The notes beneath the pieces were generated by a model. That model was not told where the DNA came from and made no database searches. It saw nothing but the letters and a program-made list of their open reading frames with translations. A program made the translations under genes and the position numbers. Positions 18,262-62,436 of a stretch of 64,000 bases of DNA are shown here, piece by piece. Position 1 is the stretch's first letter, and every line of letters starts with the position of its first letter. This DNA comes from Flavobacteriales bacterium. Its GTDB lineage: Bacteria > Bacteroidota > Bacteroidia > UBA10329. Location: the NCBI GenBank assembly GCA_044356305.1, contig JBIKWM010000002.1, positions 132,053-196,052 on the forward strand, in the 5' to 3' direction.

Positions 18262-18345
18262 GTATTGGTTTTTAATGGTAGTTGGGATGAAAAAGGGAAA
18301 ACCGCCCATCGGTCAGAGGGGCGGTTGATTTTGTTAAGAAACAGG

Positions 18346-20281: not shown

Positions 20282-21952
20282 TCAACGCAGAAGTGTCAGA
20301 AATCCCTGTCGGCTCTGGGTAGACCCATCCAGACCAGTCAAATTGAGCAGATAGTAGTATGTTCCCTGTTCCGCCTCGGCATTGCCATTTATTCGGCCGT
20401 CCCATCCCCAGTCACTCCCAGCGGTCAAAGTTCCTTCCATCTCATGCACCTTCAGCCCCCACCTGTTGTAGATCTTCATTGCGGCAGCAGTGTAACCATA
20501 GACGAAAGGTTCCCACAACCTGTTCATATCATCACCATTCGGGGTGAACACATTCGGCACTTCCAACATGGGCATGCCCTCAATATGAATGGATTGCATG
20601 GCCGTGTCGGCACATCCGAACTCATTGGTAACGATCAGGGTCACCACATAGGTGCCGCTGTCTGGAAAAACGTACTCGGCATCTTGACCATTAAGTATGG
20701 TGTCTCCCACCATCCACTGGTAGGTCGTGGCCTGGCCCTGGGCCGAAAACGAACCATTTAGGTAGGCGGCATCAATCAAAGCAGTGGCCGTGGGCACCGG
20801 ATTCACCGTGACTGACTGTGTCACGGTGTCTGTGCAGCCATCGGCCGTTATGAGCAATAGCGCTGCATCGTATTCACCAGCTTCGGCAAATAAATGGAAA
20901 TGGTCAATGGTGGAGGCCGTGGACCCATCACCATGATCCCAAGAATAGGTGGTCCCCTGTCCGAGAGCATTGCCCGTGAAGTCAAATGCTGTGGTATCGC
21001 CCGCACAGACCGGCCCGGTATTAAAGGCAGCGGTCGGCAGCGGGTCTATCACCACATCAAAACTGTCGGTGGCCGTGCACCCTGCCATGTCTGTTATGGT
21101 CTGAACTATGGTGTAGGTGCCAGGGGCGGCATAGGTCACATCCCCAGGGTCAATCTGGTCGGAGGTCTGGCCGTTGCCCAGATCCCAGTTCACTGCCGTC
21201 ACAGCTCCCAGAGCGCTATAGGACGCATCTGCAATGTTGATGGCCTCGCCAAGGCACACCTCATCATCGCTCAATGTGGCATCGGGCAGCATGGCCAGGC
21301 AAAACCTGTGCTCGTTGTTCAAACCGCCAGTACTGGCCGTGAATCCCCAATAGACCTCAGGATTGCCCGAAAAAAGGTCATTGACAATATCTGTGTTGAG
21401 TTCAACCCTCAGGTCGCTATCCATGTAGACGGAGAATGTGTTCGTGCCGGGCGCCCAGACCACGCGCATGAGATGTTCAGCCGCATCTTCAATATTGCCT
21501 CCGCTGGCAAGGGCTGTGACAGGCCCCATCAGGTTATTGGCCGTGCCATGGTCCACCACCCCATTGCTCATCAGTGCAATGTGGTCATAGACAGGGTCCC
21601 ATCCGTTCTGATAGGTGTCGACCTCCACGGCCAGAGACGGACTGATGCCCTCATAGCCCAGCCCACCACCTGTGCTGCCGATGCTGGTGCTTATAGGTTG
21701 CAACATGAATGCGATGCCATCGGCCCCGCCATCATTGGCCCCCAGGTACACATTGAATGTGAAATCAAAAGGGTCGGTCAGGTCTATCAGGTTCTCGTTC
21801 CAGACCGAGCCCCCCTGAGTGTTGATGGCCTGGGTGAGTCGGTAACAGTTGCATGAGAGCTGCACGGCATTCCCGTTCACAACGTATTGGGCCGTGCCTA
21901 TCAACGGAAGGGAAGAGAGGAGGACAAGCAGGAGTCTTTGCATATCATTCAC
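20282..21952 (-). CDS. T9SS type-B cargo: L-type (legume-like) lectin domain + PKD domains + gliding-motility-associated C-terminal domain
   Basis: Signal peptide. N-terminal lectin-like beta-sandwich (GGADGIAFMLQP..., VYWGFTASTGGLNNEHRFC). C-terminal VPNVFTPNGDDMNRLWEPF...GTYYYLL type-B CTD. Confidence 0.7.
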   Translation of the reverse strand: MNDMQRLLLVLLSSLPLIGTAQYVVNGNAVQLSCNCYRLTQAINTQGGSVWNENLIDLTDPFDFTFNVYLGANDGGADGIAFMLQPISTSIGSTGGGLGYEGISPSLAVEVDTYQNGWDPVYDHIALMSNGVVDHGTANNLMGPVTALASGGNIEDAAEHLMRVVWAPGTNTFSVYMDSDLRVELNTDIVNDLFSGNPEVYWGFTASTGGLNNEHRFCLAMLPDATLSDDEVCLGEAINIADASYSALGAVTAVNWDLGNGQTSDQIDPGDVTYAAPGTYTIVQTITDMAGCTATDSFDVVIDPLPTAAFNTGPVCAGDTTAFDFTGNALGQGTTYSWDHGDGSTASTIDHFHLFAEAGEYDAALLLITADGCTDTVTQSVTVNPVPTATALIDAAYLNGSFSAQGQATTYQWMVGDTILNGQDAEYVFPDSGTYVVTLIVTNEFGCADTAMQSIHIEGMPMLEVPNVFTPNGDDMNRLWEPFVYGYTAAAMKIYNRWGLKVHEMEGTLTAGSDWGWDGRINGNAEAEQGTYYYLLNLTGLDGSTQSRQGFLTLLR

Positions 21953-29332: not shown

Positions 29333-30049
29333 ATGAAGCTTGATATTCTGGCCTTTGGGGCACACCCCGATGATGTGGAGATATCGTGCAGTGGCACGTT
29401 GCTCAAGCACATCGCATTGGGCCAAACGGTGGGGGTTATAGACCTCACGCAGGGCGAGCTGGGCACCCGTGGCAACGGCACCCTGCGCATGCAGGAAGCT
29501 GACAGGTCGGCCGCCATCCTCGGGCTTTCAGTGAGGCAGAACCTCGGGCTGCGCGATGGTTTTTTCAGGGTCGATGAAGAGTCGCTCCACGCGGTCATCA
29601 GCGCAATACGGCACTTCAGGCCTGACGTAGTTCTGGCCAACGCCACCACCGACCGCCACCCCGACCACGGCCGTGCGAGCCAATTGGTGGCCGAGGCCTG
29701 CTTCCTCTCAGGGCTGCCAAAGGTGCTCACCGAGCGCGGGGGCGCACAACAGGAGGCCTGGCGCCCAAGGTTGGTGCTCCATTACATTCAGGACTACCAC
29801 CAGCGGCCCGATGTGGTGATGGACATCACACCCCATTTTGAGCGGAAACTTGAGGCTCTCAGGGCCTTTTCATCACAGTTCTTCGACCCCGCCAGCACCG
29901 AGCCCGCCACGCCCATCTCAGGCCAGGACTTCTTCGACTTTCTGCGTGGCCGCGCCAAGGAGATGGGCCGACCCATCGGGGCCGCCTATGCCGAGGGCTT
30001 CACTGCTTCGCGCCACCTCGGGGTCGAGCGGTTCGATCACCTGGTCTGA
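29333..30049 (+). CDS. LmbE/PIG-L family N-acetylglucosaminyl deacetylase, BshB1-like
   Basis: MKLDILAFGAHPDDVEISCSGT ... HPDHGRASQL (His/Asp zinc motifs of LmbE-like deacetylases). Confidence 0.65.
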   Translation: MKLDILAFGAHPDDVEISCSGTLLKHIALGQTVGVIDLTQGELGTRGNGTLRMQEADRSAAILGLSVRQNLGLRDGFFRVDEESLHAVISAIRHFRPDVVLANATTDRHPDHGRASQLVAEACFLSGLPKVLTERGGAQQEAWRPRLVLHYIQDYHQRPDVVMDITPHFERKLEALRAFSSQFFDPASTEPATPISGQDFFDFLRGRAKEMGRPIGAAYAEGFTASRHLGVERFDHLV

Positions 30050-30873
30050 ACCGCCCGGGCCGCCTCCGGCACCGCTGACAGCTCGTGCCTCAGTCCTTTG
30101 GCACCCGTCAGCTCGGCCCGTACACGGCCCACACGCAGCGGTGCCTCTATCAGCACCGGCACCCGGTTGTCATCGGCCGTGAACCACACGGTCATCTCGG
30201 CATCCTTGTCAAAAACACTCCCGGCTATCACCTCGGTCACCACGCGGTGGCACCGGTAGCGCGACCTTTTCAGCTTCACCTCCTCTAGCCCCACATAACG
30301 CACCATCAGGTCATACACCTTCTCATCCAGATACACCGACAGGCCCAGCCGCTCACCCTTTGCCAGGCTGTCCATGTCTATGCTGCGGGCGTTGTAGAAC
30401 ATGCTCACCGCATCGTACGTGCAGGCATGTATGGCTATGGTGTCCTTCACGCGCTCCACGCCATCGCGTCTGCGCCACGCCACTGCCCTCAGGGCCCTGT
30501 GGTCAAAGAAGTTGTTGTTGTACACCTTGAAACCCCCATCGTCCGTGTCGCGCAGATACTGCACAGGGCGCAGGTCCACTCTGCGCGCAAGGCTCTCAAA
30601 CCGGTCGCGCACCCTGTACACGATGTCGTAGCGCGGGGTGGTGCGCCCTATGGCCACAAAATGATACAGCGGCTGTCCGTTACGCGTCAGAGTGTCGGCC
30701 GTCAGGCTCACCGCCCCGGCATTGGCCCGTACTATTCCCCATCGGTAGCTTACCCGGTAGTACAGTTCCTCGCCAGCGCTGAACGCGGTCGGAAGCTGCG
30801 CACACACCTGCTGACCCAATGCCCTGACCGAGATGAGGGGCAACAGGGCCAGAAAGAAAAGAAGACGCATCAA
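30037..30873 (-). CDS. DUF3108 domain-containing protein
   Basis: Signal peptide MMRLLFFLALLPLISVRALGQ. YRVSYRWGIVRANAGAVSL... pattern typical of DUF3108. Converges on and overlaps the 3' end of the deacetylase gene. Confidence 0.5.
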   Translation of the reverse strand: MMRLLFFLALLPLISVRALGQQVCAQLPTAFSAGEELYYRVSYRWGIVRANAGAVSLTADTLTRNGQPLYHFVAIGRTTPRYDIVYRVRDRFESLARRVDLRPVQYLRDTDDGGFKVYNNNFFDHRALRAVAWRRRDGVERVKDTIAIHACTYDAVSMFYNARSIDMDSLAKGERLGLSVYLDEKVYDLMVRYVGLEEVKLKRSRYRCHRVVTEVIAGSVFDKDAEMTVWFTADDNRVPVLIEAPLRVGRVRAELTGAKGLRHELSAVPEAARAVQTR

Positions 30874-31763
30874 TGCAGCACAGGCCGCAATGCACGGCCA
30901 TCGGCAAATCGCAGCGAATACACACCCTGCCGAAGTCCACCAAGGTCAATGACATCTGCGCCCCCTTTCAGTTCAAACTGCGCCACGGTGCGCCCATGCA
31001 TGTCTGCAAGAGTGGCCATCCCGGCCGGGGCACCGTGCACATGCAGCACACCGTCAGTCGGGTTGGGGCCCATGCTCAGCGCCTGTGCGGCACGTGCATC
31101 ATCAATGCCCACCTGCAGCACGCAGGTCGACCCCTGCGTGGGCACATAGCTCACATCGCCCAGACCGAAACACACCAGATCATATCCGCACTCCAATATG
31201 GGCGGCACAGGCTCTATCAGACCCCCCGTGAAACCGATCCCCTCATACAGATATCCCGCATAGGACCCCTCTAGCGTAAACCGCCTGCGCATCGTCCCGC
31301 CCACCGAGAAACTGTCCACGGCCGTCACCAGAATATCAGTCCAATTGTTATTGTGGGTCAGTGGCAGATGGTCGCCCACCTGCAGGTCAAAGTCGTAGAG
31401 CAGCGTGTCTACTGTCCCGTTCCAGGTATACAGCCTACGCCCCTCCTGTCTGAGTAGGAAAGACGGCAACGGGTCGCTGAAGGTGAACGAACCGCTGCAC
31501 GATGGCGGCACCGGAGGCCCACCGAAATACTCGTAGGTCCCTATCCCCGAGCGGTACATCTTGTGGTACAGGTGGCCTCCTACAGTGCTGTCGCCTACAG
31601 GCATGTAGTTGTAATCAGAATTCAGGATGCACGGGTATGGCACTGCGCACATCGCACTTATGGTCCACACCGGACTGCCCTCAAAGTAGTCGGGTATCTG
31701 AGCCATGGCATGCGCAGACATGAGCAGCCAGGCCGAAAAGGTGACAAGCTTTTTCATCAGCAT
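30870..31763 (-). CDS. Hypothetical T9SS type-A cargo protein
   Basis: Signal peptide MLMKKLVTFSAWLLMSAHAMAQ. C-terminal MGPNPTDGVLHVHG...GVYSLRFADG sorting domain. Confidence 0.6.
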   Translation of the reverse strand: MLMKKLVTFSAWLLMSAHAMAQIPDYFEGSPVWTISAMCAVPYPCILNSDYNYMPVGDSTVGGHLYHKMYRSGIGTYEYFGGPPVPPSCSGSFTFSDPLPSFLLRQEGRRLYTWNGTVDTLLYDFDLQVGDHLPLTHNNNWTDILVTAVDSFSVGGTMRRRFTLEGSYAGYLYEGIGFTGGLIEPVPPILECGYDLVCFGLGDVSYVPTQGSTCVLQVGIDDARAAQALSMGPNPTDGVLHVHGAPAGMATLADMHGRTVAQFELKGGADVIDLGGLRQGVYSLRFADGRALRPVLH

Positions 31764-31772
31764 CTCAGATCA

Positions 31773-31940
31773 TGAATTGAACACAATGTTAAGGATGAAT
31801 GCCAGCAGCCCACCATAACCTATTACAGCCATGATGAACGACCGTGCAAAACCATGACCCCTGCTGCGCTGCACCAGGGCAGTGAGCAGCGCCAGCATCA
31901 CTACACCCACCGCCATCAGCCACCATTGCCATGCACCCAT
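31773..31940 (-). CDS. Possible small (55 aa) two-helix membrane protein
   Basis: Manual translation MGAWQWWLMAVGVVMLALLTALVQRSRGHGFARSFIMAVIGYGGLLAFILNIVFNS. Below the ORF-track length cutoff. Confidence 0.2.
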
Positions 31941-32206
31941 CCCCGACTGCGCAAATCGTACCCGACAAAACTATGAGGTATATGTTAAGCAGATCTCCCA
32001 CCGCCATTCCTCTAAGCGAACAGCCCATGGAATATCCGCACTGATTCTGAAATGACAGAAGCCGCTGTATCGATTGCCTTTATCCATGACCACCGCACTT
32101 GCGCGGTCTGCATCTCTTATGAAGTCACAGAGACTTCGAGCGTCATGTTCCGCACGGGTTATCCCGTGGAACGCATGAGCGAACGGGGGTTTATTAACCC
32201 ATTGCC

Positions 32207-33388
32207 CTAATTTTTTAGTAACCGGCTCCTTACCACCGAACCATCTCTCAATTTGACCGAAACAACATATACCCCCGAGTACAGGTGCTCAACATGGATT
32301 GTACTCTTCAAACCACTCACCTTCTGAACAGCCACCACTTTGCCCAATTGGTCTTGGATGGTGACATGTTCTATTTCAGAATTTGAGCCTGTAACATTGA
32401 ACTGTACTTGATCATTTGCTGGGTTTGGATAAAGTTCAAGGGTGTATTCCTCCGATTCTCGAATGCCGATGCTATTATCCTCACGCAATTCAACGGCATC
32501 GATGAAGTAAGAACTTGCTTCCCAACTATTGATAAGGGGTGGGTTGGAACTGACACGTTGAAAACTCAGTTCATCCTCTGAGCGGAAAACACCAATGGTC
32601 ATGAACTTCTCGCCACCATGAGCAATAAATTGCCCACTGATCTCAACCCAATTCACCCTGTCCTCCAACAAAAAACTATCCGGGCTCTCCACCTGTGGTT
32701 TGGCCACAATAAAACTATCAATAGGAAGAAAGCGGGTGGTATTCTCAGTAAACAGGGCCCCAATGTTGGCTACAGCGAAATTCACACTATCAGCAAGATT
32801 CACACGGCATTTGAACAGATAACCGTGGCCACTATTTAGGCTTTCAGGCAGTTCCATCCACAGGTATTCTCGGGCATTTGCCCAAAATGGGGTGTAGCAG
32901 GCAAAGTGGCCATAGGCTACCCCATCATATGCATCTTGATAACCATATTGATTGTTTGGCACCCCAAACTTTGGCCAATCCTCGTTGCTGCATGCATTGA
33001 AGTAATCAACTGACCCATAGGCTGAGCCCCAATACTCTGACACAGTTATCCAGCCTGGGCTAGAAGGGCATGCCGGGTCACCGTTTACATCCAATTCTAT
33101 CTCTTCAAAACTATAGTTCGGAATAATATTAGGCCCTAACTGGGCAATTGCGTTTTGTACATTAAACAATGTGACCCAAAGAAAGAAATATGTAGTGGTG
33201 GTTCTCCCCCTTTCGCTCGCGTCTCGCGAGTGAGAATTTCTCTGCCTCTGGCATTCTGAGAAAATTCTTTTCCATTGACGCGCCCGAGCGAGGCTGTGCG
33301 GTGTGCTGGCGCGTAGGGTCTTTCCCTCGCGCCTTTTATTCGGTGGTCTCCAGCCCACCCAGTGGCCAGTGTTCTCATGCCTCATCAT
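32207..33388 (-). CDS. Low-GC T9SS type-A cargo protein; 5' end runs into repeat unit, start codon uncertain (possible pseudogene)
   Basis: C-terminal ELYPNPANDQVQFNV...GVYVVSVKL sorting domain. Signal-peptide-like ...YFFLWVTLFNVQNAIAQ has no in-frame ATG/GTG. The ORF-track N-terminus MMRHENTGH... is repeat-derived. GC ~44% vs ~60% flanks. Confidence 0.55.
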   Translation of the reverse strand: MMRHENTGHWVGWRPPNKRREGKTLRASTPHSLARARQWKRIFSECQRQRNSHSRDASERGRTTTTYFFLWVTLFNVQNAIAQLGPNIIPNYSFEEIELDVNGDPACPSSPGWITVSEYWGSAYGSVDYFNACSNEDWPKFGVPNNQYGYQDAYDGVAYGHFACYTPFWANAREYLWMELPESLNSGHGYLFKCRVNLADSVNFAVANIGALFTENTTRFLPIDSFIVAKPQVESPDSFLLEDRVNWVEISGQFIAHGGEKFMTIGVFRSEDELSFQRVSSNPPLINSWEASSYFIDAVELREDNSIGIRESEEYTLELYPNPANDQVQFNVTGSNSEIEHVTIQDQLGKVVAVQKVSGLKSTIHVEHLYSGVYVVSVKLRDGSVVRSRLLKN

Positions 33389-33470
33389 CAGTTCCGTTCA
33401 CCAAAGGTCAACAATTATCTGAGTCACACACCATTCCGGCTCATCCAGATCCTTCCATTACGACCCCCTC
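33205..33470. repeat. Tandem repeat unit A copy 1 (~265 bp, hairpin-rich)
   Basis: ccccct-ttcgctcgcgtctcgcgagtgagaatttctctgcctctggcattctga...cattacgaccccctcc. ~90% identical to copies 2 and 3. Confidence 0.85.
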
Positions 33471-33736
33471 CCCCCCCTTCGCTCGCGTCTCGCGAGTGAG
33501 AATTTCTCTGCCTCTGGCATTCTGAAAAAATTCTTTTCCATTGGCGCGCCCGAGCGAGGCTGTGCGGTGTGCTGGCGCGTAGGGTCCTTCCCTCGCGCCA
33601 TTTATTCGGTGGGCTCCAGCCCACCCGGTGGCCAGTGTTCTCATGCCTGCTCATCATTCCGATTCACCAAAGGTCAACAATTATCTGATTCACACACCAT
33701 TCCAGCTCATCCAGATCCTTCCATTACGACCCCCTC
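33471..33736. repeat. Tandem repeat unit A copy 2
   Basis: Directly abuts copy 1 head-to-tail. Same internal palindromes (ctcgcgag, gagaatttctc, ggtgggctccagcccacc). Confidence 0.85.
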
Positions 33737-33900
33737 CTCACAAACAGCCAACAGCCATCTGTAAATCTGTACTCATCCATAATCCACATCAGCCTTAACA
33801 CCCGGTACCTTCCACCACACCCCTCCTCGCAAATAGCCATCAATCATTTGTATATCCGTACTCATCTGTAATTCGCATCAGCCCCTAACAGAAAACCCCG

Positions 33901-34167
33901 ACCCCCCCCTTCGCTCGCGTCTCGCGAGTGAGAATTTCTCTGCCTCTGGCATTCTGAAAAAATTCTTTTCCATTGGCGCGCCCGAGCGAGGCTGTGCGAT
34001 GTGCTGGCGCGTAGGGTCCTTCCCTCGCGCCATTTATTCGGTGGGCTCCTGCCCTCCCAGTGACCCGTGTTCTCATGCCTCATCATCAGTTCAATTCACC
34101 AAAGGTCAACAATTATCTGAGTCACACACCATTCCGGCTCATCCAGATCCTTCCATTACGACCCCCT
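33901..34167. repeat. Tandem repeat unit A copy 3
   Basis: Separated from copy 2 by a 164-bp spacer made of sub-repeat B. Confidence 0.85.
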
Positions 34168-34480
34168 CCTCGCAAATAGCCATCAATCATTTGTATATCC
34201 GTACTCATCTGTAATTCGCATCAGCCCCTAACAGAAAACCCCGACCATACCGGCCGGGGCCTTCCCTTTCACTCTCACCCTCACTTTCACTCTCACCCTA
34301 CCAAATGGCCAACAGCCAACGGCTATCAACCATTTGTATATCCGTACTCATCTGTAATTCGCATCAGCCCTAAACAGAAAACCCTCACCACACCGGCCAG
34401 GGCCTTCCCTTTCACTCTCACCCTCACTTTCACTCTAACAAATGGCCAACAGCCAACGGCTATCAACCATCTGTGTCTCC
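34168..34480. repeat. Mosaic of sub-repeats B/C (70-90 bp units)
   Basis: tcgcaaatagccatcaatcatttgtatatccgtactcatctgtaattcgcatcagcccctaacagaaaaccccgacc occurs at 33825 and 34159. ggccttccctttcactctcaccctcactttcactct...aaatggccaacagccaacggctatcaaccat occurs at 34258 and 34401. Confidence 0.8.
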
Positions 34481-34637
34481 GCCAACCCCACAAATCCCTG
34501 CCCCATCACCATAGGGCAACGGGTATTTGACGGGCCTCGGGCCATCAAAACCAGCATTATCCTCCTTTTTGGTAGCCCCTCTTCACAGAAAACTGTCGGA
34601 GGGCACCAGATTGCTGAAAGCCGCGCCATCACTGCTT

Positions 34638-34770
34638 TCGTACGATCCATAATTGCTATCGCACGATCCATAATTGCTGTCGCACGTCTCATAATTGCTG
34701 TCGTACGATCCATGATCGCTGTCGTACGTATCGCACATTGCTGTCGCTTGCTTCCCGAATGCTGTCGTTC
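34638..34770. repeat. Six degenerate 21-bp direct repeats (iteron-like) upstream of the sensor-phosphatase gene
   Basis: cgtacgatccataattgctat / cgcacgatccataattgctgt / cgcacgtctcataattgctgt / cgtacgatccatgatcgctgt / cgtacgtatcgcacattgctgt ... spaced 21 bp, ~70-200 bp upstream of 34839. Confidence 0.7.
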
Positions 34771-34838
34771 TCCGCATCTCCCCTGACACTCTACTCCGCA
34801 CAATCATTGACTCTCGCCCCGGCCCCGGCCTACATCGC

Positions 34839-37800
34839 ATGCAGCGCGTGGCGCAGCCCAAGGAGACCCATAACCTAAAGCGCAGCGGTGCCGTATCAGC
34901 GCGCTGCCCTGACCAGGCCCTCTTCATCCGCGCCTTGCGAAACCTACACGGCATAGCGGCCCTTGTGGCCGCCCTTCTGCTGGCCCCATCGGTCACCGCA
35001 CAGACATACGACATCCGCACCTTCGGCATTGACGAGGGTCTGCCGCAGGCCGAGGTCAACCACATGATCCAAGACAGCCGCGGCCACCTCGTAGTGGCCA
35101 CCAACGGGGGCGGTGCGGCCCTCTTTGACGGGTCAGGGTTTGCCGTGATAGGAATGGCCGAAGGACTGCCTGACGTCAAGGTGACCCACGTGGCCGCAGG
35201 CCCTGACGGCTCCCTTTGGCTTGCACACCCGGGGCACGGCCTGAGCAGGGGTACCGGCCAGGCCCCGCTCAGCTTCAGTGCTCTGGCCGGCCTTCCGAGC
35301 CAACAGGTGAACACCCTACTGGCCGATGGCGACAGCGTGCTCTGGGCCGGAACCTTTGGTGGGCTGTGCGCTGTGCGCGGCAAGGACCTGCGCCTACTGA
35401 CCAAGGCCGATGGTCTTCCGTCTGACGACATACGCGCCATATGCCGCGACCGGGCGGGTGCGCTCTGGGTGGGCACTTACGGGGGCGGTGTGGCCCGCCT
35501 CGACAACGGCACGTTCGTGCCCTTCGGCATCGAGGCCGGACTCACTGACGGCTTCATCTCCGATCTGTTCCTGGCCCGTGACGGCCGCATGCTGGTGGCC
35601 ACTGCCTCGGGCGTGCTGGTGTGGGACGGCCAATCGTTCGCACCCCTGCGCAATGCAGGGGCCGTGCGTGTCAATGCCATGGCCGAGGATGCACAGGGCA
35701 ACATCTGGCTCGCCACCCCCGAAGGGGCCCTCATGGTGGGCGACCTGGGCCGCGAACTGCTCTCTGACCGCAACGGACTGCCCCACCCCGAGGTGCTCAG
35801 CATCTGTATAGACCGCGAACAGAACATCTGGTTCGGCACGCGCAAGGGCCTGGCCCGGCTCGCACACAGGGCCATGGCCCACTTTGCCCCGCAGGGCCGC
35901 CCCGCCCTCGAGCCGAGCGCCTTTGGCCGGTTGCCCGATGGCACGCTGGTGCTCACCGACCGCACTGGCGGGGCGCTGCGTATTGACGGCAATGCATTTA
36001 TTCCCATTGTCAACGATGCCGATGTGGCCAGCCACCCGTTCAGCAGCCTCGCCACCGGGGCCGATGGCAGGCTATGGCTGGGCACCTCCGATTTCGGTGG
36101 TCTCTTCAGCATCAGCGATGGCAAGGTGAGCATCTATTCTGATGAGCCCGGGCTGATGGACAACAGCATCTCGGCCCTGGTCACTGGGGCCGACAGCCGC
36201 CTCATCATCGGTACCCCGGGCGGACTGAGCTATTTCGATGGCGACCGGTTTGTGCCCGGCCCGTCCGATCTGGGCCACATCACCGCCCTCACTCCCACCG
36301 TGGGGTCCGATGTGCTTGTAGGGACACTTTCGGGGGCCGTTCTGCACCTGCATGCCGACCGCGCAGACACGGTACACAGCGCCAAGGTGCCCATCACGGC
36401 CCTGGTGGCCATGCCCGATGGGCGCAAGGCCATAGGCACCGATGGCGAGGGCGTGGTGGTAATTGGCAAAGAGAGCCGTTTCGCAGTGACCGAGGCCGAT
36501 GGCCTCACCTCGCGGTTTGTGCGCAGCCTTGTGTGGGACGGCCGCCACCTGTGGGCAGGCACGGCCAAAGGCGTGTCGCGGCTTCTCCTCGGTGCCGATT
36601 CGGCCCAAGTGCTCGCCATCACCCAGGCGCACGGATTCAGCGGCAGCGAGTGTCTGCCGGGCGCACTGATGACCGATGGCGATATGCTGTGGGTGGGCAC
36701 CATCAAGGGCGTCACACGCATCAACAAATCGCTGGTCGGGCGCGATACCGTCCAGCCTGTGGTGTTCCTCACATCGGTTCAGCTATTGCTGCAGGAGGTG
36801 AACAGCGGGGCCGGCACCTCCGCCCTACCCCACAGCCTCGACCTCGGCCACGATGACAACCACCTGCGATTCAGTTTCAAGGCCATCTCCCTTACCAATC
36901 CGGAGCTTATCACCTATCGTTGGCGACTGGTGGGGTATGATGTCGAATGGAACGAGGGCAGCAGCGGGGTGGCCAATTATCCGAACCTGCCTCACGGAGA
37001 GTATGTGTTTGAAGTGGTGGCCTGCAACAGCGATGGCGTGTGTACCGAGGCTCCGGTGCAATTCAGCTTCCGCATCCGCCCTCCCTTCTGGAAAACGGTC
37101 TGGTTCTATGTCGTTGTGGCCTTTGCCGTCATGACCACCGTGGTGCTGTGGGTGCGCTGGCGCGAGCGCAGGCTGCTGGCCCTCAACCGCGAACTGGAGG
37201 ATAAGGTGGACCTGCGCACCCGCGAGCTGAAGGAACAGCGCGACCTGGTGGAGGAGAAGAACAGGCACATCACCGAAGGGATAGAGTATGCCCGCAACAT
37301 CCAGATGGCCATTCTGCCCTCGGCTTCCGAGCTCGATAGGGCGTTCAGTGAACATTTCGTGATCTACATGCCCAAAGACACCGTGGGGGGCGACTTCTAT
37401 TGGGCCTATACCAGCGGCACGGTCACATGGGCCGTGGCAGCCGACTGCACCGGACATGGTGTGGCAGGGGCATTCATGAGCATGATAGGCAGCGACCTGC
37501 TCAACCAGCTCATCATTGAGCAGGGGGCCACATCGCCTGCTGCGGTGCTGCGAGAGCTCGACCGCGGCATCAAACTGGCCTTTGCCCAGAGCGCCAAGGA
37601 GTTTGAGAACGATCAGGGCATGGACGTGGCCATGGTGCGCCTTGACCGCGCCTCCCGACACATCACATTTGCAGGGGCCATGCGGCCATTGCTGGTGGTG
37701 GGCCAAGAGGTGAACGAGACCGAGGGCGACCGGCACACCATCTCCAGTGCCGAACATGGGCCGGTCGCCTTCACCGACCGCTCCATCACTCTGGCCGAAG

Positions 37801-38015
37801 GCGAGACCGTTTATATCTATTCCGATGGGCTCTGCGACCAGTTCGGTGGGCCAAGGGGTAAGAAATTCGGGTCGAAACAGCTGCGCGAGCTGATCGCTGC
37901 CATGAACGGACAGCCCCTTGCGGCACAGCACGATGCCCTGCTCAGCGCCATCACCGCATGGAAAGGCCAAGAGCCTCAACAGGACGACATCATGATCCTC
38001 GCATTCAGACCTTGA
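34839..38015 (+). CDS. Membrane sensor: periplasmic two-component-regulator beta-propeller + Y_Y_Y domain, TM helix, cytoplasmic PP2C/SpoIIE serine phosphatase
   Basis: Repeated propeller blades (WFGT.KGL, LWVGTYGGGVARLD etc.). TM VWFYVVVAFAVMTTVVLWV. Coiled coil. SpoIIE core VGGDFYWAYT...AVAADCTGHGVAGAFMSMIG...DGLCDQFGG...QDDIMILAFR. Confidence 0.8.
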   Translation: MQRVAQPKETHNLKRSGAVSARCPDQALFIRALRNLHGIAALVAALLLAPSVTAQTYDIRTFGIDEGLPQAEVNHMIQDSRGHLVVATNGGGAALFDGSGFAVIGMAEGLPDVKVTHVAAGPDGSLWLAHPGHGLSRGTGQAPLSFSALAGLPSQQVNTLLADGDSVLWAGTFGGLCAVRGKDLRLLTKADGLPSDDIRAICRDRAGALWVGTYGGGVARLDNGTFVPFGIEAGLTDGFISDLFLARDGRMLVATASGVLVWDGQSFAPLRNAGAVRVNAMAEDAQGNIWLATPEGALMVGDLGRELLSDRNGLPHPEVLSICIDREQNIWFGTRKGLARLAHRAMAHFAPQGRPALEPSAFGRLPDGTLVLTDRTGGALRIDGNAFIPIVNDADVASHPFSSLATGADGRLWLGTSDFGGLFSISDGKVSIYSDEPGLMDNSISALVTGADSRLIIGTPGGLSYFDGDRFVPGPSDLGHITALTPTVGSDVLVGTLSGAVLHLHADRADTVHSAKVPITALVAMPDGRKAIGTDGEGVVVIGKESRFAVTEADGLTSRFVRSLVWDGRHLWAGTAKGVSRLLLGADSAQVLAITQAHGFSGSECLPGALMTDGDMLWVGTIKGVTRINKSLVGRDTVQPVVFLTSVQLLLQEVNSGAGTSALPHSLDLGHDDNHLRFSFKAISLTNPELITYRWRLVGYDVEWNEGSSGVANYPNLPHGEYVFEVVACNSDGVCTEAPVQFSFRIRPPFWKTVWFYVVVAFAVMTTVVLWVRWRERRLLALNRELEDKVDLRTRELKEQRDLVEEKNRHITEGIEYARNIQMAILPSASELDRAFSEHFVIYMPKDTVGGDFYWAYTSGTVTWAVAADCTGHGVAGAFMSMIGSDLLNQLIIEQGATSPAAVLRELDRGIKLAFAQSAKEFENDQGMDVAMVRLDRASRHITFAGAMRPLLVVGQEVNETEGDRHTISSAEHGPVAFTDRSITLAEGETVYIYSDGLCDQFGGPRGKKFGSKQLRELIAAMNGQPLAAQHDALLSAITAWKGQEPQQDDIMILAFRP

Positions 38016-38040
38016 AAAGCCGCATTACTTTCAGGCCCGC

Positions 38041-40404
38041 ATGTTCCGCCCGCTCATACTGCTCCTCTCTTTCACCGCCCTGATCGGTCAGGCATGGGCG
38101 CAGCAGGCCGAGATTGACCGGCTCAACGACCGCCTGCGGGCCGAGCTTGCCCCCAAGGGTACCAAGGCCGACACGGCCAGGGCTGAGGTGATGGTGCAAC
38201 TGGCCGAGCTCTACGTGAAGGTGGACCCCGACCGCGCACTTGACCTGTGTAAGGATGCGCTCGGTATAAGTATCCGCCACGCCAACAACCGCCTTGTGTC
38301 GCGCATCTACAACTGCACGGGCACCGTTAACCGCATCAAGGGCGACTATGAGAAGGCGATCCAGTTTCACGAACGCGCACTTGAGACTGACCGGAAGTCC
38401 GCTGACCGAATGGGCATCGCCCTGTCGCTCAACAACCTTGGCAACGCCTATCTGGGACAGGGCCGACTGAATGAGGCCAGGCAGCGCTATGCCGAATCGT
38501 TGGCCATCAGGCAGGATCTGGGCGATCAGGCTCCTATTGCCGCATCGCTCAATAACCTTGGAATGGTATACCGCAACATGGGCGACCATGACAAGGCCCT
38601 TGTCTATTACCAGAATGCCCTTAGGATATTCCAACAGCAGAATGACCAGCTCGGCACGGCCAATGCGCTGAACAACATCGGCATCGTTCAGCGCAATCAG
38701 GGAAATCTTGACCGGGCCATGGAGAGTTTCCAATCGGCACTGAAGGTGTTCGAGAAGGAGTACAATAAGGTGGGAATGGCTTTCACCCTCAACAACATTG
38801 GCAACATATACCAGCAGCAGGGCAATCAGGGGCAGGCCCTGAGCCTGTATGACCAATCGTTGAAGCTCAGTGAGGAGCTGGGCGACCGCGCCTCGGCTGC
38901 GGGCAAGTACAACAACATGGGGGCCGTTTATCACGACAAGGGCGATATGAGTTCGGCCCTCGATATGACCCAACGGGCTCTGCGCATACAACGGGAGCTG
39001 GGCGACCAGAGCGGTCAGGCCAACACGCTTAACAATCTGGGGGCCTATTACCGCGAACAGGGCGATGCCGACCGCGCGCTGGAGAGTTTCCTTGAGGCAG
39101 AGCGCATACAGAGGCGCACAGGCGACAACAACTACACCGTGGAGACCCTCACTTCCATTGGCGAACTGTATAGCAAGAAGGGCGAAGGCGGCAAGGGCCT
39201 CCGCTACCTCGAAGGGGCCATGGAGGCTGCCAAAGAGAAGCGGTCAGGACAAGAGCTGCAGCGTGTATACACCGCCATGAGCGAGGCCTATGCGCAGGCA
39301 GGCGACTTTGAACGCAGCTATAGGTACCAAAAACTCAATGCCAATCTCAAAGACTCGCTCGAAAGGACAGTGAATGTGCGCCAATTGGCAGAGATGCAGG
39401 CCAAATTTGAGACCGAGCGCAAACAGCGCGAGATAGACCAGCTGAACCGCGACCGCGAGGTGAAGGACCTTGTCATGGGCCGCCAGCGCATGGTGCGTAA
39501 CCTGATGATCGTGTTGGCGGTGCTGATAATGGCGCTGGCCGTGGTGCTGTTTCAGCGCTACAGGGCCAAGCAGCGGGCCAATGAGGAACTGGGGCGGAAA
39601 AACGAGGAGATAGAGGCCCAACGCTCCATCCTGAAAGAGAAGAACGAGGAGATAACCGATAGCATTGAGTACGCCAAGCGCATTCAGGATGCCATCCTGC
39701 CATCACTTGATGAGGTGACGCGGGTGCTGCCCCAGAGTTTCATCTATTTCCGCCCAAAGGCCATTGTTAGTGGCGATTTCTATTGGTTCAATGAGGTGAA
39801 CGGAACTGCTTTCCTCGCAGCCGTTGACTGTACCGGCCACGGGGTGCCCGGGGCTTTTATGAGTATGATAGGCAACGACCACCTCAACCAGGTGGTTCTG
39901 GTAGAGGGGTGCAAACGCCCCGATGAGATCCTCAACCGCCTGCATGCCGAGGTGCAGCACACCCTGCGCCAGCGCCACGGCCTCACTGAGACCCACGTGG
40001 GCATGGACATTGCCCTTTGCGCCATTGACCTTGAGAGCGGACTTCTGCAATTTGCCGCTGCCAATAGGTATCTGATGCTTTTCCGTGGAGAGGAACTCAC
40101 CGAACTGAAGGGCGACCATCTCAATGTGGGCGGCATCATGCACGAGGATGTGCGCAACTATACACTCCACGAGCTTCAACTCAACCCGGGCGACTGCCTT
40201 TATATGTTCAGCGATGGAGTCACTGATCAGTTCGGTGGACCAGACGACCGCAAGTTCGGTTACCGCAGATTGCGCGAGATGCTGCGCGACATACGCCACC
40301 TGCCCATGCAGGATCAGCGCGCCACTGTTGAACGCGGTCTGCTCTCATGGATGGGCCAACGTGACCAGATTGATGATTTCGTACTGATCGGGGTGCGGGT
40401 GTGA
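38041..40404 (+). CDS. Membrane sensor: TPR-repeat periplasmic domain, TM helix, PP2C/SpoIIE serine phosphatase
   Basis: Signal peptide MFRPLILLLSFTALIGQAWAQ. ~9 TPRs (LNNLGNAYLGQGRLNEA...). TM LMIVLAVLIMALAVVLF. SpoIIE core SGDFYWFNEV...AAVDCTGHGVPGAFMSMIGN...DGVTDQFGG...DDFVLIGVRV. Confidence 0.8.
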   Translation: MFRPLILLLSFTALIGQAWAQQAEIDRLNDRLRAELAPKGTKADTARAEVMVQLAELYVKVDPDRALDLCKDALGISIRHANNRLVSRIYNCTGTVNRIKGDYEKAIQFHERALETDRKSADRMGIALSLNNLGNAYLGQGRLNEARQRYAESLAIRQDLGDQAPIAASLNNLGMVYRNMGDHDKALVYYQNALRIFQQQNDQLGTANALNNIGIVQRNQGNLDRAMESFQSALKVFEKEYNKVGMAFTLNNIGNIYQQQGNQGQALSLYDQSLKLSEELGDRASAAGKYNNMGAVYHDKGDMSSALDMTQRALRIQRELGDQSGQANTLNNLGAYYREQGDADRALESFLEAERIQRRTGDNNYTVETLTSIGELYSKKGEGGKGLRYLEGAMEAAKEKRSGQELQRVYTAMSEAYAQAGDFERSYRYQKLNANLKDSLERTVNVRQLAEMQAKFETERKQREIDQLNRDREVKDLVMGRQRMVRNLMIVLAVLIMALAVVLFQRYRAKQRANEELGRKNEEIEAQRSILKEKNEEITDSIEYAKRIQDAILPSLDEVTRVLPQSFIYFRPKAIVSGDFYWFNEVNGTAFLAAVDCTGHGVPGAFMSMIGNDHLNQVVLVEGCKRPDEILNRLHAEVQHTLRQRHGLTETHVGMDIALCAIDLESGLLQFAAANRYLMLFRGEELTELKGDHLNVGGIMHEDVRNYTLHELQLNPGDCLYMFSDGVTDQFGGPDDRKFGYRRLREMLRDIRHLPMQDQRATVERGLLSWMGQRDQIDDFVLIGVRV

Positions 40405-40421
40405 TGGCACATCACATGGAC

Positions 40422-40453
40422 CGGAAAAAAGAAAACCCCGCCAAATGACGGGG
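40422..40453 (-). terminator. Intrinsic terminator downstream of tRNA-Cys (possibly bidirectional)
   Basis: Hairpin ccccg-ccaaatga-cgggg 40436-40453. On the minus strand it is followed by ttttcttttttcc. Confidence 0.5.
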
Positions 40454-40461
40454 TCTCTTAC

Positions 40462-40535
40462 TGGAGGTCACGAGCGGATTTGAACCGCTGTACGAGGTTT
40501 TGCAGACCTCTGCCTAACCGCTCGGCCACGTGACC
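40462..40535 (-). tRNA. tRNA-Cys (anticodon GCA)
   Basis: Reverse complement GGTCACGTGGCCGAGCGGTTAGGCAGAGGTCTGCAAAACCTCGTACAGCGGTTCAAATCCGCTCGTGACCTCCA. 7-bp acceptor stem, D-arm GCCGAGCGGTTAGGC, anticodon loop CTGCAAA, T-arm GGTTCAAATCC, U73 discriminator, encoded CCA. Confidence 0.85.
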
Positions 40536-61035: not shown

Positions 61036-61176
61036 TATTTGGCCCCGCTGGGTAGCAGATGTCTGGGCGGATGGGCCGCCCGGTAGTAGTCCGCTTGGCC
61101 CGTTTTGCAAATGGTCCATGCATCACTTTCACGCACAATGCGTTACCTTTCGCCCTTCAAACATCGATTACTGCAC

Positions 61177-62436
61177 ATGAGAAAGACACTTACCTCCGTA
61201 TTCATCCTGGCCTCTCTCTCCACGACTGCGCAGTCGCCCGTTTCCATCATCGGGCTCGACAGCACCAGCATCCAGACTGCCATCAGCAACCTCATTTTCG
61301 GTGGCTGCGTGCAGGTAAGCAACGTGACGTACACTGGCCACGCCCGTTCTTTTGGGGTGATGCTCGACCCGTCCGGTCAGTTTGGGATGGATACGGCTTT
61401 GGTTATCAGTACCGGAGTGGCAGATTCTATAGAAGGAGCAGCCACAGATTTCATCGGAAGCAACATGGGTACATCTGGCGATGCAGACCTTAGTTCAATA
61501 GCTTCCTTCTCAACCTATGATGCGGCCATTCTTGAGTTCGATTTTACCCCTGCATCTGACACCATATATGCCAGCACCTTCTTTTTCGGCTCTGAAGAAT
61601 ATCCTGAGTTCGTGAATAGTTCCTTTAACGATGTGTTCGCTTTTCACATCAGTGGACCGGGCATTTCGGGTGGTCCGCTGAACATCGCTTATTTGCCCGG
61701 AAGCACGACTCCAATTACCATTAACAACGTGAACGACCAGCTGAATAGCCAGTACTACATTGATAACCAGTCTGGTACTGTGCTGAGGTTGGATGGCCTT
61801 ACAGTGCCCGTGCAACTCGAATACCCCGTAGAACCTGGCCAGACCTATCACTTCAAAGTTGCCATAGCCGATGCCGGAGATGGCGTCTATGACTCAGGTG
61901 TATTCCTCCGCGCACAGAGTTTCTGTGGCAGTTTCTGGGTGCAGCAGGCAGAGTTTGTGCCGATGGACAATGGCGACCTGAGTTTCCAGTTCATGAACAA
62001 CGTGGCCAGTGGCAGCACTTCGTATGTGTGGGATTTCGGAGACGGCACCACCAGCACCGAGGCCAGCCCCACACACATGTATGCGCTGCCCGGCCAGTAC
62101 ACAGTGACCCTCACGGCCAGCAACGCCTGCCAGCAGGTGAGCCAGCAACAGGTGGTTAATGCAAGCCTTGTGGGGATGGATATTGCCTCGCAGCCCGGCA
62201 CCTTGCAGGTGCTGAACGGGGCCGATGGTCAGGTACGGGTCAACTACTCCGCTCCATCTGCGCACCGTCTTGGTCTGAGCGTTCTGGCCCTCGATGGTCG
62301 CGAGGTGATGAACATGCCCCTGGGCACTGCATCAGAGGTGAGCCGGTCCATTGATCTGAGCGGCCTGCCCACAGGTGTTTACCTCATCAGCCTGATGGCC
62401 GATGACCACCGCCACATGGCGCGGGTGGTGCGCTGA
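61177..62436 (+). CDS. T9SS type-A cargo with choice-of-anchor-L-like N-terminal domain and PKD domain
   Basis: Start MRKTLTSVFILASLSTTAQS. FGSEEYPEFVNSSFNDVFAFHISGPGISG / AIADAGDGVYDSGVFL motifs. YVWDFGDGTTST PKD. CTD ...GVYLISLMADD. Confidence 0.65.
   Translation: MRKTLTSVFILASLSTTAQSPVSIIGLDSTSIQTAISNLIFGGCVQVSNVTYTGHARSFGVMLDPSGQFGMDTALVISTGVADSIEGAATDFIGSNMGTSGDADLSSIASFSTYDAAILEFDFTPASDTIYASTFFFGSEEYPEFVNSSFNDVFAFHISGPGISGGPLNIAYLPGSTTPITINNVNDQLNSQYYIDNQSGTVLRLDGLTVPVQLEYPVEPGQTYHFKVAIADAGDGVYDSGVFLRAQSFCGSFWVQQAEFVPMDNGDLSFQFMNNVASGSTSYVWDFGDGTTSTEASPTHMYALPGQYTVTLTASNACQQVSQQQVVNASLVGMDIASQPGTLQVLNGADGQVRVNYSAPSAHRLGLSVLALDGREVMNMPLGTASEVSRSIDLSGLPTGVYLISLMADDHRHMARVVR

What the first reader, a model, noticed from the sequence alone, without database searches (positions are those of the whole stretch)
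34839..40404. Two adjacent transmembrane sensors ending in PP2C/SpoIIE phosphatase domains, without visible partner-switching partners
Gene 1 couples a periplasmic beta-propeller + Y_Y_Y module to a cytoplasmic SpoIIE phosphatase. That propeller module is the ligand-sensing part of Bacteroidota hybrid two-component systems. Gene 2 couples a nine-TPR periplasmic domain to the same type of phosphatase. The two phosphatase domains are clearly paralogous (shared ..DCTGHG..GAFMSMIG.. and DQFGGP motifs). No STAS anti-anti-sigma, RsbW-like kinase or ECF sigma gene lies within reach; the nearest neighbour is a tRNA. This suggests either a distant substrate or a non-canonical output. The tandem arrangement with different sensing domains suggests signal integration at one locus, preceded by the 21-bp repeat array.
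Basis: partly seen in the sequence, partly recalled or inferred. Interest (0 to 1): 0.55.

Follow-up and report, generated by a model that had tools for sequence, protein, structure and literature searches.

The report
Paired SiaA-type membrane sensor phosphatases
Two neighbouring genes of a Flavobacteriales-like bacterium encode membrane sensors (one with a beta-propeller, one with a TPR outer domain) that end in an intact phosphatase of the Pseudomonas SiaA type, an ordinary, widespread kind of signalling protein whose likely partners (SiaB/SiaC-like proteins rather than STAS/RsbW) are usually encoded elsewhere in the genome.

Summary
Gene 1 (34839/34935-38015) is signal peptide, Reg_prop propellers, Y_Y_Y, one TM helix, coiled coil and a PP2C domain. 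Gene 2 (38041-40404) is signal peptide, about 9 TPRs, one TM helix, coiled coil and PP2C. The TM-to-PP2C modules are paralogous (38% identity) and all catalytic Asp/Gly residues are present. No STAS, RsbW-type kinase, sigma factor, SiaB or SiaC gene lies anywhere in the 64 kb.

The interpretation needs refining. Both phosphatase modules are SiaA-type: PDB 6K4E scores E 4e-47 and 9e-38, against about 1e-3 for SpoIIE and RssB, and the only NCBIfam PP2C hit is SiaA. In 84 homologous Bacteroidota loci, the only switch components seen within 10 kb were SiaC (DUF1987) and/or SiaB (DUF6272) genes, in 10 loci. No STAS was detected. Having no adjacent partner is therefore the norm (about 88% of loci).

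The tandem pair is conserved as a unit in at least 5 Flavobacteriales genomes with different flanks, so the two genes are probably functionally coupled. The 21-nt array belongs to a roughly 3-kb lineage-specific insertion and is not part of the locus.

Both architectures are common and already annotated generically in databases. Verdict: new member of a known kind, modest interest.

The parts
34935..38015 (+). Gene 1: sensor phosphatase of 1026 aa from TTG 34935. The longest ORF, from ATG 34839, gives 1058 aa.
   Evidence: ORF. Pfam Reg_prop, Y_Y_Y and SpoIIE. Start inferred from comparison with relative L002.
34935..35000 (+). Gene 1 signal peptide (MRNLHGIAALVAALLLAPSVTA|Q)
   Evidence: Hydrophobicity scan. 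Conserved TTG start with an equivalent signal peptide in L002.
35001..37076 (+). Gene 1 periplasmic sensor: Reg_prop beta-propeller repeats (about 12-14 blade motifs) followed by a Y_Y_Y Ig-like domain (36894-37076)
   Evidence: Pfam. PDB hits 3V9F, 4A2L, 3VA6 and 3OTT, which are Bacteroides HTCS sensor domains. Blade motif count.
37089..37160 (+). Gene 1 single transmembrane helix (WKTVWFYVVVAFAVMTTVVLWVRW), followed by a positively charged cytoplasmic side
   Evidence: Hydrophobicity scan.
37182..38009 (+). Gene 1 cytoplasmic coiled-coil linker plus SiaA-type PP2C domain, with catalytic residues intact
   Evidence: NCBIfam SiaA NF038263, 4e-62, profile positions 382-656 of 658. PDB 6K4E 4e-47.
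38016..38040 (+). 25-nt intergenic gap between genes 1 and 2. Orthologous pairs have gaps of 15-25 nt, so co-transcription is likely.
   Evidence: Sequence and orthologous gaps. No promoter-like or terminator-like site in the gap.
38041..40404 (+). Gene 2: TPR sensor phosphatase, 787 aa
   Evidence: ORF. Pfam TPR families and SpoIIE. About 65 full-length homologue clusters at 51-58% identity.
38164..39360 (+). Gene 2 periplasmic TPR domain of about 9-10 repeats, preceded by the signal peptide at 38041-38100
   Evidence: Pfam. 40-aa periodic motif. Resembles the TPR sensor region of Porphyromonas FimS, NF053520 8e-55.
39493..39558 (+). Gene 2 single transmembrane helix
   Evidence: Hydrophobicity scan.
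39595..40401 (+). Gene 2 cytoplasmic coiled-coil linker plus SiaA-type PP2C domain, with catalytic residues intact
   Evidence: NCBIfam SiaA 5.8e-54. PDB 6K4E 8.7e-38, against SpoIIE 7e-4.

Best explanation
The locus encodes two co-expressed, single-pass membrane sensor phosphatases.

**Anatomy (shown).** Each protein places a ligand-binding domain in the periplasm: a double beta-propeller plus Y_Y_Y in gene 1, and a TPR solenoid in gene 2. Each links that domain through one TM helix and a coiled-coil linker to a cytoplasmic, catalytically intact PP2C/PPM domain. That domain belongs to the SiaA subfamily, not the RsbU/SpoIIE subfamily.

**Signal transmission (inferred from RsbU/PPM work).** Ligand-induced movement of the dimeric sensor passes through the TM helix and coiled coil to the PP2C dimer interface. 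This switches Mn2+/Mg2+-dependent phosphatase activity.

**Substrate (inferred from homologue neighbourhoods and subfamily).** The substrate is a phospho-Thr/Ser SiaC-like (DUF1987) switch protein. A SiaB-like (DUF6272) kinase re-phosphorylates it. Both are encoded elsewhere in the genome.

**Integration.** The two phosphatases would feed two different periplasmic cues into the same switch, as RsbU and RsbP do for RsbV in Bacillus.

**Output.** The downstream output of the dephosphorylated SiaC-like protein in this organism is unknown. No SiaD-type cyclase accompanies the Bacteroidota SiaB/SiaC modules examined.
For: - **Architecture and topology.**
- **Catalytic residues conserved.**, with the residue list from PMC7647112.
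- **SiaA subfamily, PDB.** 6K4E (SiaA-PP2C) scores 164 and 133 bits. The next solved PPMs (RssB, SpoIIE, Rv1364c) score about 19-22 bits.
- **SiaA subfamily, NCBIfam.** The only PP2C-type hit is SiaA, at 4e-62 and 6e-54. The match includes the linker.
- **Partner adjacency in homologues.**
  - P0004 is directly preceded by DUF6272 plus SiaC.
  - P0011/L005 has SiaC 48 nt upstream.
  - The survey of 84 loci found SiaC-like genes in 7 loci and DUF6272 in 6, giving 10 loci in union and 5 within 2 kb.
- **The adjacent genes are true SiaB and SiaC homologues.** They match PDB 6KKO_A at 1.5e-14 and 6KKO_C/6K4F at 5e-21, with the phospho-acceptor 'NTSS' conserved.
- **No STAS detected.** phmmer with recalled SpoIIAA/RsbV sequences found nothing. 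In the Pfam scan of 112 small neighbouring genes, SiaC was the joint-commonest family (5 members, tied with five others that include housekeeping families).
- **Pair conserved as a unit with different flanks.**
- **Same sensor, many outputs.** The Reg_prop/Y_Y_Y sensor is fused elsewhere to HK, GGDEF, cyclase, kinase and sigma-54 activator outputs. This fits the modular coiled-coil model of PMC12143880.
- **Literature.** SiaABC is an established partner switch, and SiaC is STAS-like in fold (PMC8457831).
Against: - **No partner shown in this genome.** No SiaB or SiaC gene is in the 64-kb window, and I could not show one elsewhere in the same genome.
- **Adjacency is a minority pattern.** Only about 12% of homologous loci carry SiaB or SiaC nearby, and none of the closest orthologous pairs (L008, L088, L089) does. 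The link rests on distant homologues (25-31% identity over the full length).
- **Modelled contact residues differ.** SiaA residues modelled to contact SiaC are not conserved: R652 becomes Q or I, and F612 becomes K or R (PMC7647112).
- **Not SiaA orthologues.** Both proteins score far below the SiaA equivalog cutoff (211 and 184 bits against 700), and neither has a HAMP domain.
- **STAS screen was limited.** The seeds were recalled from memory, and only the top 25 of 85 Pfam families were displayed.
Confidence: 0.55

Rival explanations
1. This is a classical RsbU/SpoIIE-type partner switch. The two phosphatases dephosphorylate a STAS anti-anti-sigma factor, which frees an alternative sigma factor from an RsbW-type anti-sigma kinase. 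All partners are encoded elsewhere.
For: - Both proteins match Pfam SpoIIE PF07228.
- JGI names them 'serine phosphatase RsbU'.
- STAS-based switches are the commonest known PPM partners (PMC12143880, PMC11418112).
- The rest of the genome was not searchable.
Against: - The PP2C modules are roughly 110-140 bits closer to SiaA than to SpoIIE, RssB or Rv1364c.
- No STAS or RsbW gene was found in the window.
- None was detected in the 84 homologous loci, whereas SiaC and SiaB genes were.
Confidence: 0.2
2. The two proteins form a heterodimeric phosphatase through their paralogous coiled-coil and PP2C dimer interface. One enzyme would then carry two different periplasmic sensors and act as a coincidence detector. 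The alternative is two independent homodimers converging on one substrate.
For: - The pair is kept adjacent with 15-25 nt gaps in at least 5 genomes despite different flanks.
- The paralogy runs from the TM helix through the linker to the PP2C domain.
- SiaA-PP2C and other PPMs dimerise through helices alpha0-alpha3 (PMC7647112, PMC12143880).
Against: - There is no direct evidence.
- 38% identity does not imply a shared interface.
- More distant TPR-PP2C homologues occur alone, and most propeller-PP2C genes are not paired. Each type can therefore function on its own.
- Operon conservation is equally well explained by co-regulation.
Confidence: 0.12
3. The phosphatases act on other phosphoproteins, such as substrates of Hanks-type Ser/Thr kinases or a fused or unknown target, and not on a partner-switch protein.
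For: - The same Reg_prop/Y_Y_Y sensor is fused to Pkinase domains in other bacteria (P0068, P0088, P0105).
- About 88% of loci have no switch partner nearby.
- The modelled SiaC-contact residues are not conserved.
Against: - From general knowledge, not tested here: phosphatases that oppose Hanks kinases usually belong to a different PPM subfamily (PF13672/PF00481), not PF07228.
- When a small signalling gene is adjacent to a homologue, it is SiaC or SiaB.
Confidence: 0.1
4. The proteins are inactive pseudo-phosphatases that act only as scaffolds.
For: None found.
Against: All metal-binding Asp/Gly residues defined in the SiaA structure are conserved in both proteins and across 17 homologues.
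Confidence: 0.03

Closest known systems
SiaA of the Pseudomonas aeruginosa SiaABCD system (PP2C phosphatase; PDB 6K4E; NCBIfam NF038263)
   Same: - The coiled-coil linker and the whole PP2C domain are clearly homologous (E 4e-47 and 9e-38; the only NCBIfam PP2C hit).
- All active-site residues are conserved.
- Both are membrane-anchored sensor phosphatases.
- Distant homologues with the gene 1 architecture sit next to true SiaB and SiaC homologues.
   Different: - SiaA has two TM helices and a HAMP domain. Here there is one TM helix after a large propeller or TPR periplasmic domain, and no HAMP.
- There is no siaB, siaC or siaD in the operon or within 64 kb.
- The scores are far below the equivalog cutoff.
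- The modelled SiaC-contact residues R652 and F612 are not conserved.
- No SiaD-type cyclase lies near the Bacteroidota SiaB/SiaC modules examined.
Bacteroides hybrid two-component system sensors (BT4663, PDB 4A2L/4A2M; also 3V9F, 3VA6, 3OTT)
   Same: The gene 1 periplasmic module (Reg_prop propellers plus Y_Y_Y) is homologous to them (2e-32 to 2e-20). It is followed by one TM helix, as in HTCS.
   Different: The output is a PP2C phosphatase, not HisKA-HATPase-REC-HTH_AraC. No adjacent polysaccharide-utilisation (SusC/SusD) genes were seen.
RsbU and RsbP converging on RsbV in Bacillus subtilis (two PPM phosphatases with different inputs, one switch protein)
   Same: There are two paralogous PPM phosphatases with different sensor inputs. 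Convergence on a common phosphoprotein is plausible. Control is through a coiled-coil linker (PMC12143880).
   Different: - RsbU and RsbP are soluble, and their partners (RsbT; RsbQ) and substrate are encoded nearby.
- The PP2C subfamily here is SiaA-type.
- No STAS or sigma factor is nearby.
Porphyromonas gingivalis FimS (TPR-containing sensor histidine kinase; NCBIfam NF053520)
   Same: The gene 2 TPR region and TM helix resemble the FimS sensor region (8e-55, profile positions 167-397). Both have the layout signal peptide, TPR, TM helix, output domain.
   Different: The output is PP2C, not a histidine kinase. The score is far below the equivalog cutoff (186 against 600 bits).

Membership tests
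PPM/PP2C phosphatases of the SpoIIE type (Pfam PF07228) | Domain match above the Pfam gathering score | tested here: met
   Gene 1 scores 82.2 bits and gene 2 scores 80.7 bits, against a cutoff of 25.
PPM/PP2C phosphatases of the SpoIIE type (Pfam PF07228) | Metal-coordinating Asp/Gly residues (SiaA D457, D474, G477, D600, G601, D653) | tested here: met
   All are conserved in both proteins in the alignments to 6K4E. They are also invariant across 17 homologues.
SiaA (NCBIfam NF038263 equivalog; SiaABCD system) | Full-length match above the equivalog cutoff (700 bits) | tested here: not met
   The scores are 210.7 and 183.7 bits. Only profile positions about 382-657 of 658 (linker plus PP2C) match.
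SiaA (NCBIfam NF038263 equivalog; SiaABCD system) | PP2C domain closest to SiaA-PP2C among characterised PPMs | tested here: met
   6K4E scores E 4e-47 and 8.7e-38. The next best solved PPMs score E 7e-4 to 8e-3.
SiaA (NCBIfam NF038263 equivalog; SiaABCD system) | HAMP domain between the membrane and the PP2C domain | tested here: not met
   There is no HAMP hit in Pfam at E<=0.01. A plain coiled coil follows the TM helix.
SiaA (NCBIfam NF038263 equivalog; SiaABCD system) | Encoded with siaB, siaC (and siaD) | tested here: not met
   None is present in the 64 kb. Partners are present next to some distant homologues only.
SiaA (NCBIfam NF038263 equivalog; SiaABCD system) | Dephosphorylates SiaC phospho-Thr68 | not testable with these tools
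   This needs a biochemical assay.
RsbU/SpoIIE-type STAS partner-switch module | STAS anti-anti-sigma and RsbW-type kinase (and sigma factor) in the neighbourhood | tested here: not met
   None is in the window. None was detected in the 84 homologous loci.
Bacteroidota hybrid two-component systems (HTCS) | Periplasmic Reg_prop propellers plus Y_Y_Y domain | tested here: met
   Pfam and PDB HTCS sensor structures.
Bacteroidota hybrid two-component systems (HTCS) | Cytoplasmic HisKA, HATPase_c, REC and HTH_AraC domains | tested here: not met
   No such domains were found. The output is SpoIIE/PP2C.

The most novel reading that the evidence does not exclude
In a Flavobacteriales clade, the conserved and tightly spaced pair forms one heteromeric phosphatase. 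It would combine a propeller (glycan-type) sensor and a TPR sensor. It would control a SiaC-like switch whose output is not c-di-GMP, because no SiaD-type cyclase accompanies the Bacteroidota SiaB/SiaC modules examined. This would be part of a many-sensors-to-few-switches network of orphan SiaA-type phosphatases that regulates an uncharacterised Bacteroidota response.
Probability: 0.1. Interest if true: 0.6.

Novelty: new member of a known kind. Interest (0 to 1): 0.3.

Why it matters
- **Abundance.** Sensor PP2C genes are numerous in Bacteroidota.
- **Annotation.** These 'SpoIIE/RsbU' phosphatases are SiaA-type, and the partners seen next to them are SiaB/SiaC homologues, not STAS/RsbW. This corrects the default annotation-based expectation and gives a concrete hypothesis: which substrate to test.
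- **Test case.** The conserved two-gene unit is a tractable case for how two periplasmic cues are combined.
- **Limit.** The domain combinations themselves are common and fit the published idea that sensor modules are exchanged between kinases, cyclases and PPM phosphatases. This is an incremental finding, not a surprising one.

Tried and rejected
1. **The 21-nt array as a regulatory part of the locus: rejected.** It lies in a roughly 3-kb segment absent from the 81% relative. It has no Rfam match, and the orthologous pairs in L008, L088 and L089 have other upstream genes.
2. **Promoter and terminator scan: uninformative.** Counts were not above the shuffled controls. The only good hairpin (40432-40457) follows tRNA-Cys on the minus strand.
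3. **Partner in the same genome: not found.** The source contig (296,080 bp) could not be read beyond the window. A SiaC profile search gave 89 hits, none on a contig of that length or on the contigs of the orthologous pairs. The look-up of Parvicella SiaC (P0278) returned nothing.
4. **STAS search: negative but of limited sensitivity.** It used B. subtilis SpoIIAA and RsbV sequences recalled from memory.
5. **SiaD-like output next to Bacteroidota SiaB/SiaC modules: not found.** The neighbours are heterogeneous and none is a GGDEF protein.
6. **Pseudo-phosphatase idea: rejected.** All catalytic residues are present.
7. **Synteny of the window flanks with relatives.** Only the 81% relative shares the upstream DUF3108 and T9SS genes. 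The 40-55% relatives do not.
8. **Structure prediction was not run.** Sequence-level matches to solved structures were already decisive for fold and subfamily.

Full report
**1. The observation**

Two long ORFs lie on the + strand at 34839-38015 and 38041-40404, 25 nt apart.

Gene 1 matches Pfam Reg_prop (1.5e-40), Y_Y_Y (aa 686-746, 3e-11) and SpoIIE (aa 862-1057, 6e-23). Gene 2 matches many TPR families (TPR_12 1.6e-61) and SpoIIE (aa 588-787, 1.7e-22). A hydrophobicity scan shows an N-terminal signal peptide and one TM helix in each protein, with positive charges on the phosphatase side. The sensors are therefore periplasmic and the phosphatases cytoplasmic. Gene 2 carries a TPR signature every 40 aa: 7 strong repeats plus 2-3 weaker ones.

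The two proteins are 38% identical over 303 aa, covering TM helix, linker and PP2C (E 5e-59). Their sensor domains are unrelated.

tRNA-Cys lies at 40462-40535 on the minus strand.

I annotated all large ORFs and the 60 remaining ORFs of at least 60 aa. No STAS, anti-sigma kinase, sigma factor, SiaC or DUF6272 gene is present in the 64 kb. The window is Bacteroidota-like, with many T9SS C-terminal sorting domains and CHU_C.

Two corrections apply:
- **Gene 1 start.** In the 81%-identical relative the frame upstream is closed by TGA. The first start there is a TTG that aligns with TTG 34935 and gives a good signal peptide in both genomes. Gene 1 probably starts at 34935 and encodes 1026 aa.
- **The 21-nt array.** The array (34610-34768) lies in a segment (31887-34869) that the relative replaces with 118 bp.

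**2. What kind of phosphatase**

The cytoplasmic modules were compared with all PDB sequences.
- Gene 1 (aa 770-1058) hits P. aeruginosa SiaA-PP2C (6K4E) at 4e-47 (164 bits). The next best is RssB at 9e-4.
- Gene 2 (aa 509-787) hits 6K4E at 8.7e-38 (133 bits). The next best is SpoIIE at 7e-4.
- Both alignments include the coiled-coil segment before the PP2C fold.

In NCBIfam the only PP2C-type hit for both proteins is SiaA (NF038263; 4e-62 and 5.8e-54; profile positions about 382-657 of 658). Both score well below the equivalog cutoff, because the N-terminal halves differ.

The active-site residues listed for SiaA (D457, D474, G477, D600, G601, D653, plus D534 and D604; PMC7647112) are all conserved. 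They are also invariant across 17 homologues. The enzymes are therefore predicted to be active.

Two SiaA residues that modelling implicated in SiaC binding (R652, F612) are not conserved.

**3. The sensors**

The gene 1 periplasmic part matches the solved sensor domains of Bacteroides hybrid two-component systems: 3V9F 2e-32, 4A2L/BT4663 3e-28, 3VA6/3OTT 2e-20.

The same sensor is fused in other bacteria to histidine kinases, GGDEF, adenylate cyclase, Ser/Thr kinase and sigma-54 activator outputs. This fits the published view that coiled-coil linkers allow sensor modules to be exchanged between histidine kinases, cyclases and PPM phosphatases (PMC12143880).

The gene 2 TPR region with its TM helix resembles the sensor part of Porphyromonas FimS.

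**4. How common, and with which neighbours**

- The propeller-Y_Y_Y-PP2C architecture appears in about 25 of the 120 best protein hits. These carry names such as 'SpoIIE family protein phosphatase' or 'ligand-binding sensor domain-containing protein/serine phosphatase RsbU'.
About 70 of the 80 best loci are full-length matches, and nearly all are Bacteroidota MAGs.
- Gene 2 has about 65 full-length homologue clusters at 51-58% identity, mostly 'Flavobacteriales bacterium'.

Partner genes in the neighbourhoods of homologues:
- P0004 is directly preceded by DUF6272 plus SiaC.
- P0011 has SiaC 48 nt upstream.
- Local HMM searches of 84 loci found SiaC-like genes in 7 loci and DUF6272 in 6. The union is 10 loci, and 5 of them have the gene within 2 kb. 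Pfam confirmed the assignments.
- These genes are true homologues of SiaB (6KKO_A, 1.5e-14) and SiaC (6KKO_C/6K4F, 5e-21). The phospho-acceptor motif is conserved.
- No STAS gene was detected: none by phmmer with recalled SpoIIAA/RsbV seeds, and none among the 25 Pfam families displayed for 112 small neighbouring genes, where SiaC was the joint-commonest family.

SiaABC is a described partner switch, and SiaC has a STAS-like fold (PMC8457831).

About 88% of loci have no partner within 10 kb, like the window. The 'missing partner' is therefore the rule for this class.

**5. The tandem arrangement**

The pair recurs with 15-25 nt gaps in these genomes:
- the 81% relative;
- L008, where gene 1 is 40% and gene 2 is 55% identical;
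- L088 and L089.

In L008, L088 and L089 the flanks are GH1 upstream and thymidine kinase plus MurF/Alr downstream. The window has T9SS cargo genes upstream and tRNA-Cys, folB and gltX downstream. The two genes have stayed together through rearrangements, which argues for co-expression and functional coupling.

The pairing is clade-specific. TPR-PP2C homologues at 41-42% identity stand alone.

Clustering of SiaA-type sensor phosphatase genes is nevertheless frequent. At least 12 of 83 loci carry two or more such genes, and arrays reach five.

**6. Mechanism**

- **Shown:** the architecture, the topology, the intact active site, the SiaA subfamily and the conserved pairing.
- **Inferred from PPM and SiaA literature:** dimeric sensors transmit ligand-induced changes through the TM helix and coiled coil to the PP2C dimer interface (PMC12143880; SiaA-PP2C is a dimer, PMC7647112).
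- **Inferred from homologue neighbourhoods:** the substrate is a SiaC-like phosphoprotein opposed by a SiaB-like kinase encoded elsewhere. The two phosphatases would converge on it, as RsbU and RsbP do on RsbV.
- **Unknown:** the ligands and the output. No GGDEF/SiaD gene accompanies the Bacteroidota SiaB/SiaC modules I examined.

I could not show a SiaB or SiaC gene in this genome. Confidence in the substrate assignment is therefore moderate.

**7. Verdict**

Neither gene is a SiaA orthologue, an HTCS or a classical RsbU module. Both are members of a large, generically annotated Bacteroidota class of SiaA-type sensor phosphatases. I rate this as a new member of a known kind, with interest about 0.3.

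The most novel reading still open is a heteromeric two-sensor phosphatase controlling a non-c-di-GMP SiaC switch (probability about 0.1).

Noticed in passing
window 31887-34869: This roughly 3-kb segment is absent from the 81%-identical relative, which has 118 bp there. It holds a 393-aa T9SS-CTD ORF (32207-33388, minus strand) and about 1.5 kb of non-coding, purely local tandem duplications. These are a 266-300-nt unit x3, whose first copy overlaps the ORF's start codon, so copies 2-3 look like duplicated 5' ends. There are also 56-125-nt units x4, TCACTC runs, and the 21-nt array x6. There is no Rfam match, no inverted repeat and no copy elsewhere in the window. A Logan assembly contig breaks inside the 21-nt array.
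   Followed up: partly
window 30000-36000: There is a strong excess of C over G on the + strand here (GC skew -0.15 to -0.19), against about 0 elsewhere. GC content dips to 49% at 32-34 kb.
   Followed up: no
window 6962-15205 (minus strand): A very long ORF of 2747 aa was not analysed. The window also holds several T9SS cargo genes: 15829-18309, 20282-21952, 30870-31763, 32207-33388 and 61105-62436.
   Followed up: no
L044 9431-21231; L030 1888-13423; L039; L042: Other Bacteroidota genomes carry tandem arrays of SiaA-type sensor phosphatase genes. L044 has five in a row, and L030 has three propeller-type genes of about 1270 aa.
   Followed up: partly
L061 8897-9910, L040 7484-8917 and 10-11 further loci: In about 11-12 loci the propeller-PP2C gene is preceded by a conserved protein of about 337 aa with no Pfam match, and by a PKD/PD40 protein of about 477 aa. 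PorP/SprF and CHU_C T9SS genes recur near about 8-9 loci. No function is known.
   Followed up: partly
L024 7772-8317; L078 17258-17842; L080 14748-15329: SiaB-like (DUF6272) genes occur here without a detectable SiaC gene beside them. The kinase can therefore also be an 'orphan'.
   Followed up: partly
L041 3914-4285 (minus strand): This SiaC-like protein has Ala at the position aligned with the SiaC phospho-acceptor Thr68, followed by Ser-Ser. The other six have Thr or Ser.
   Followed up: no
window 40432-40457: A GC-rich hairpin with a T-run on the minus strand lies directly after tRNA-Cys, between the tRNA and the end of gene 2. It may terminate both convergent transcripts.
   Followed up: no
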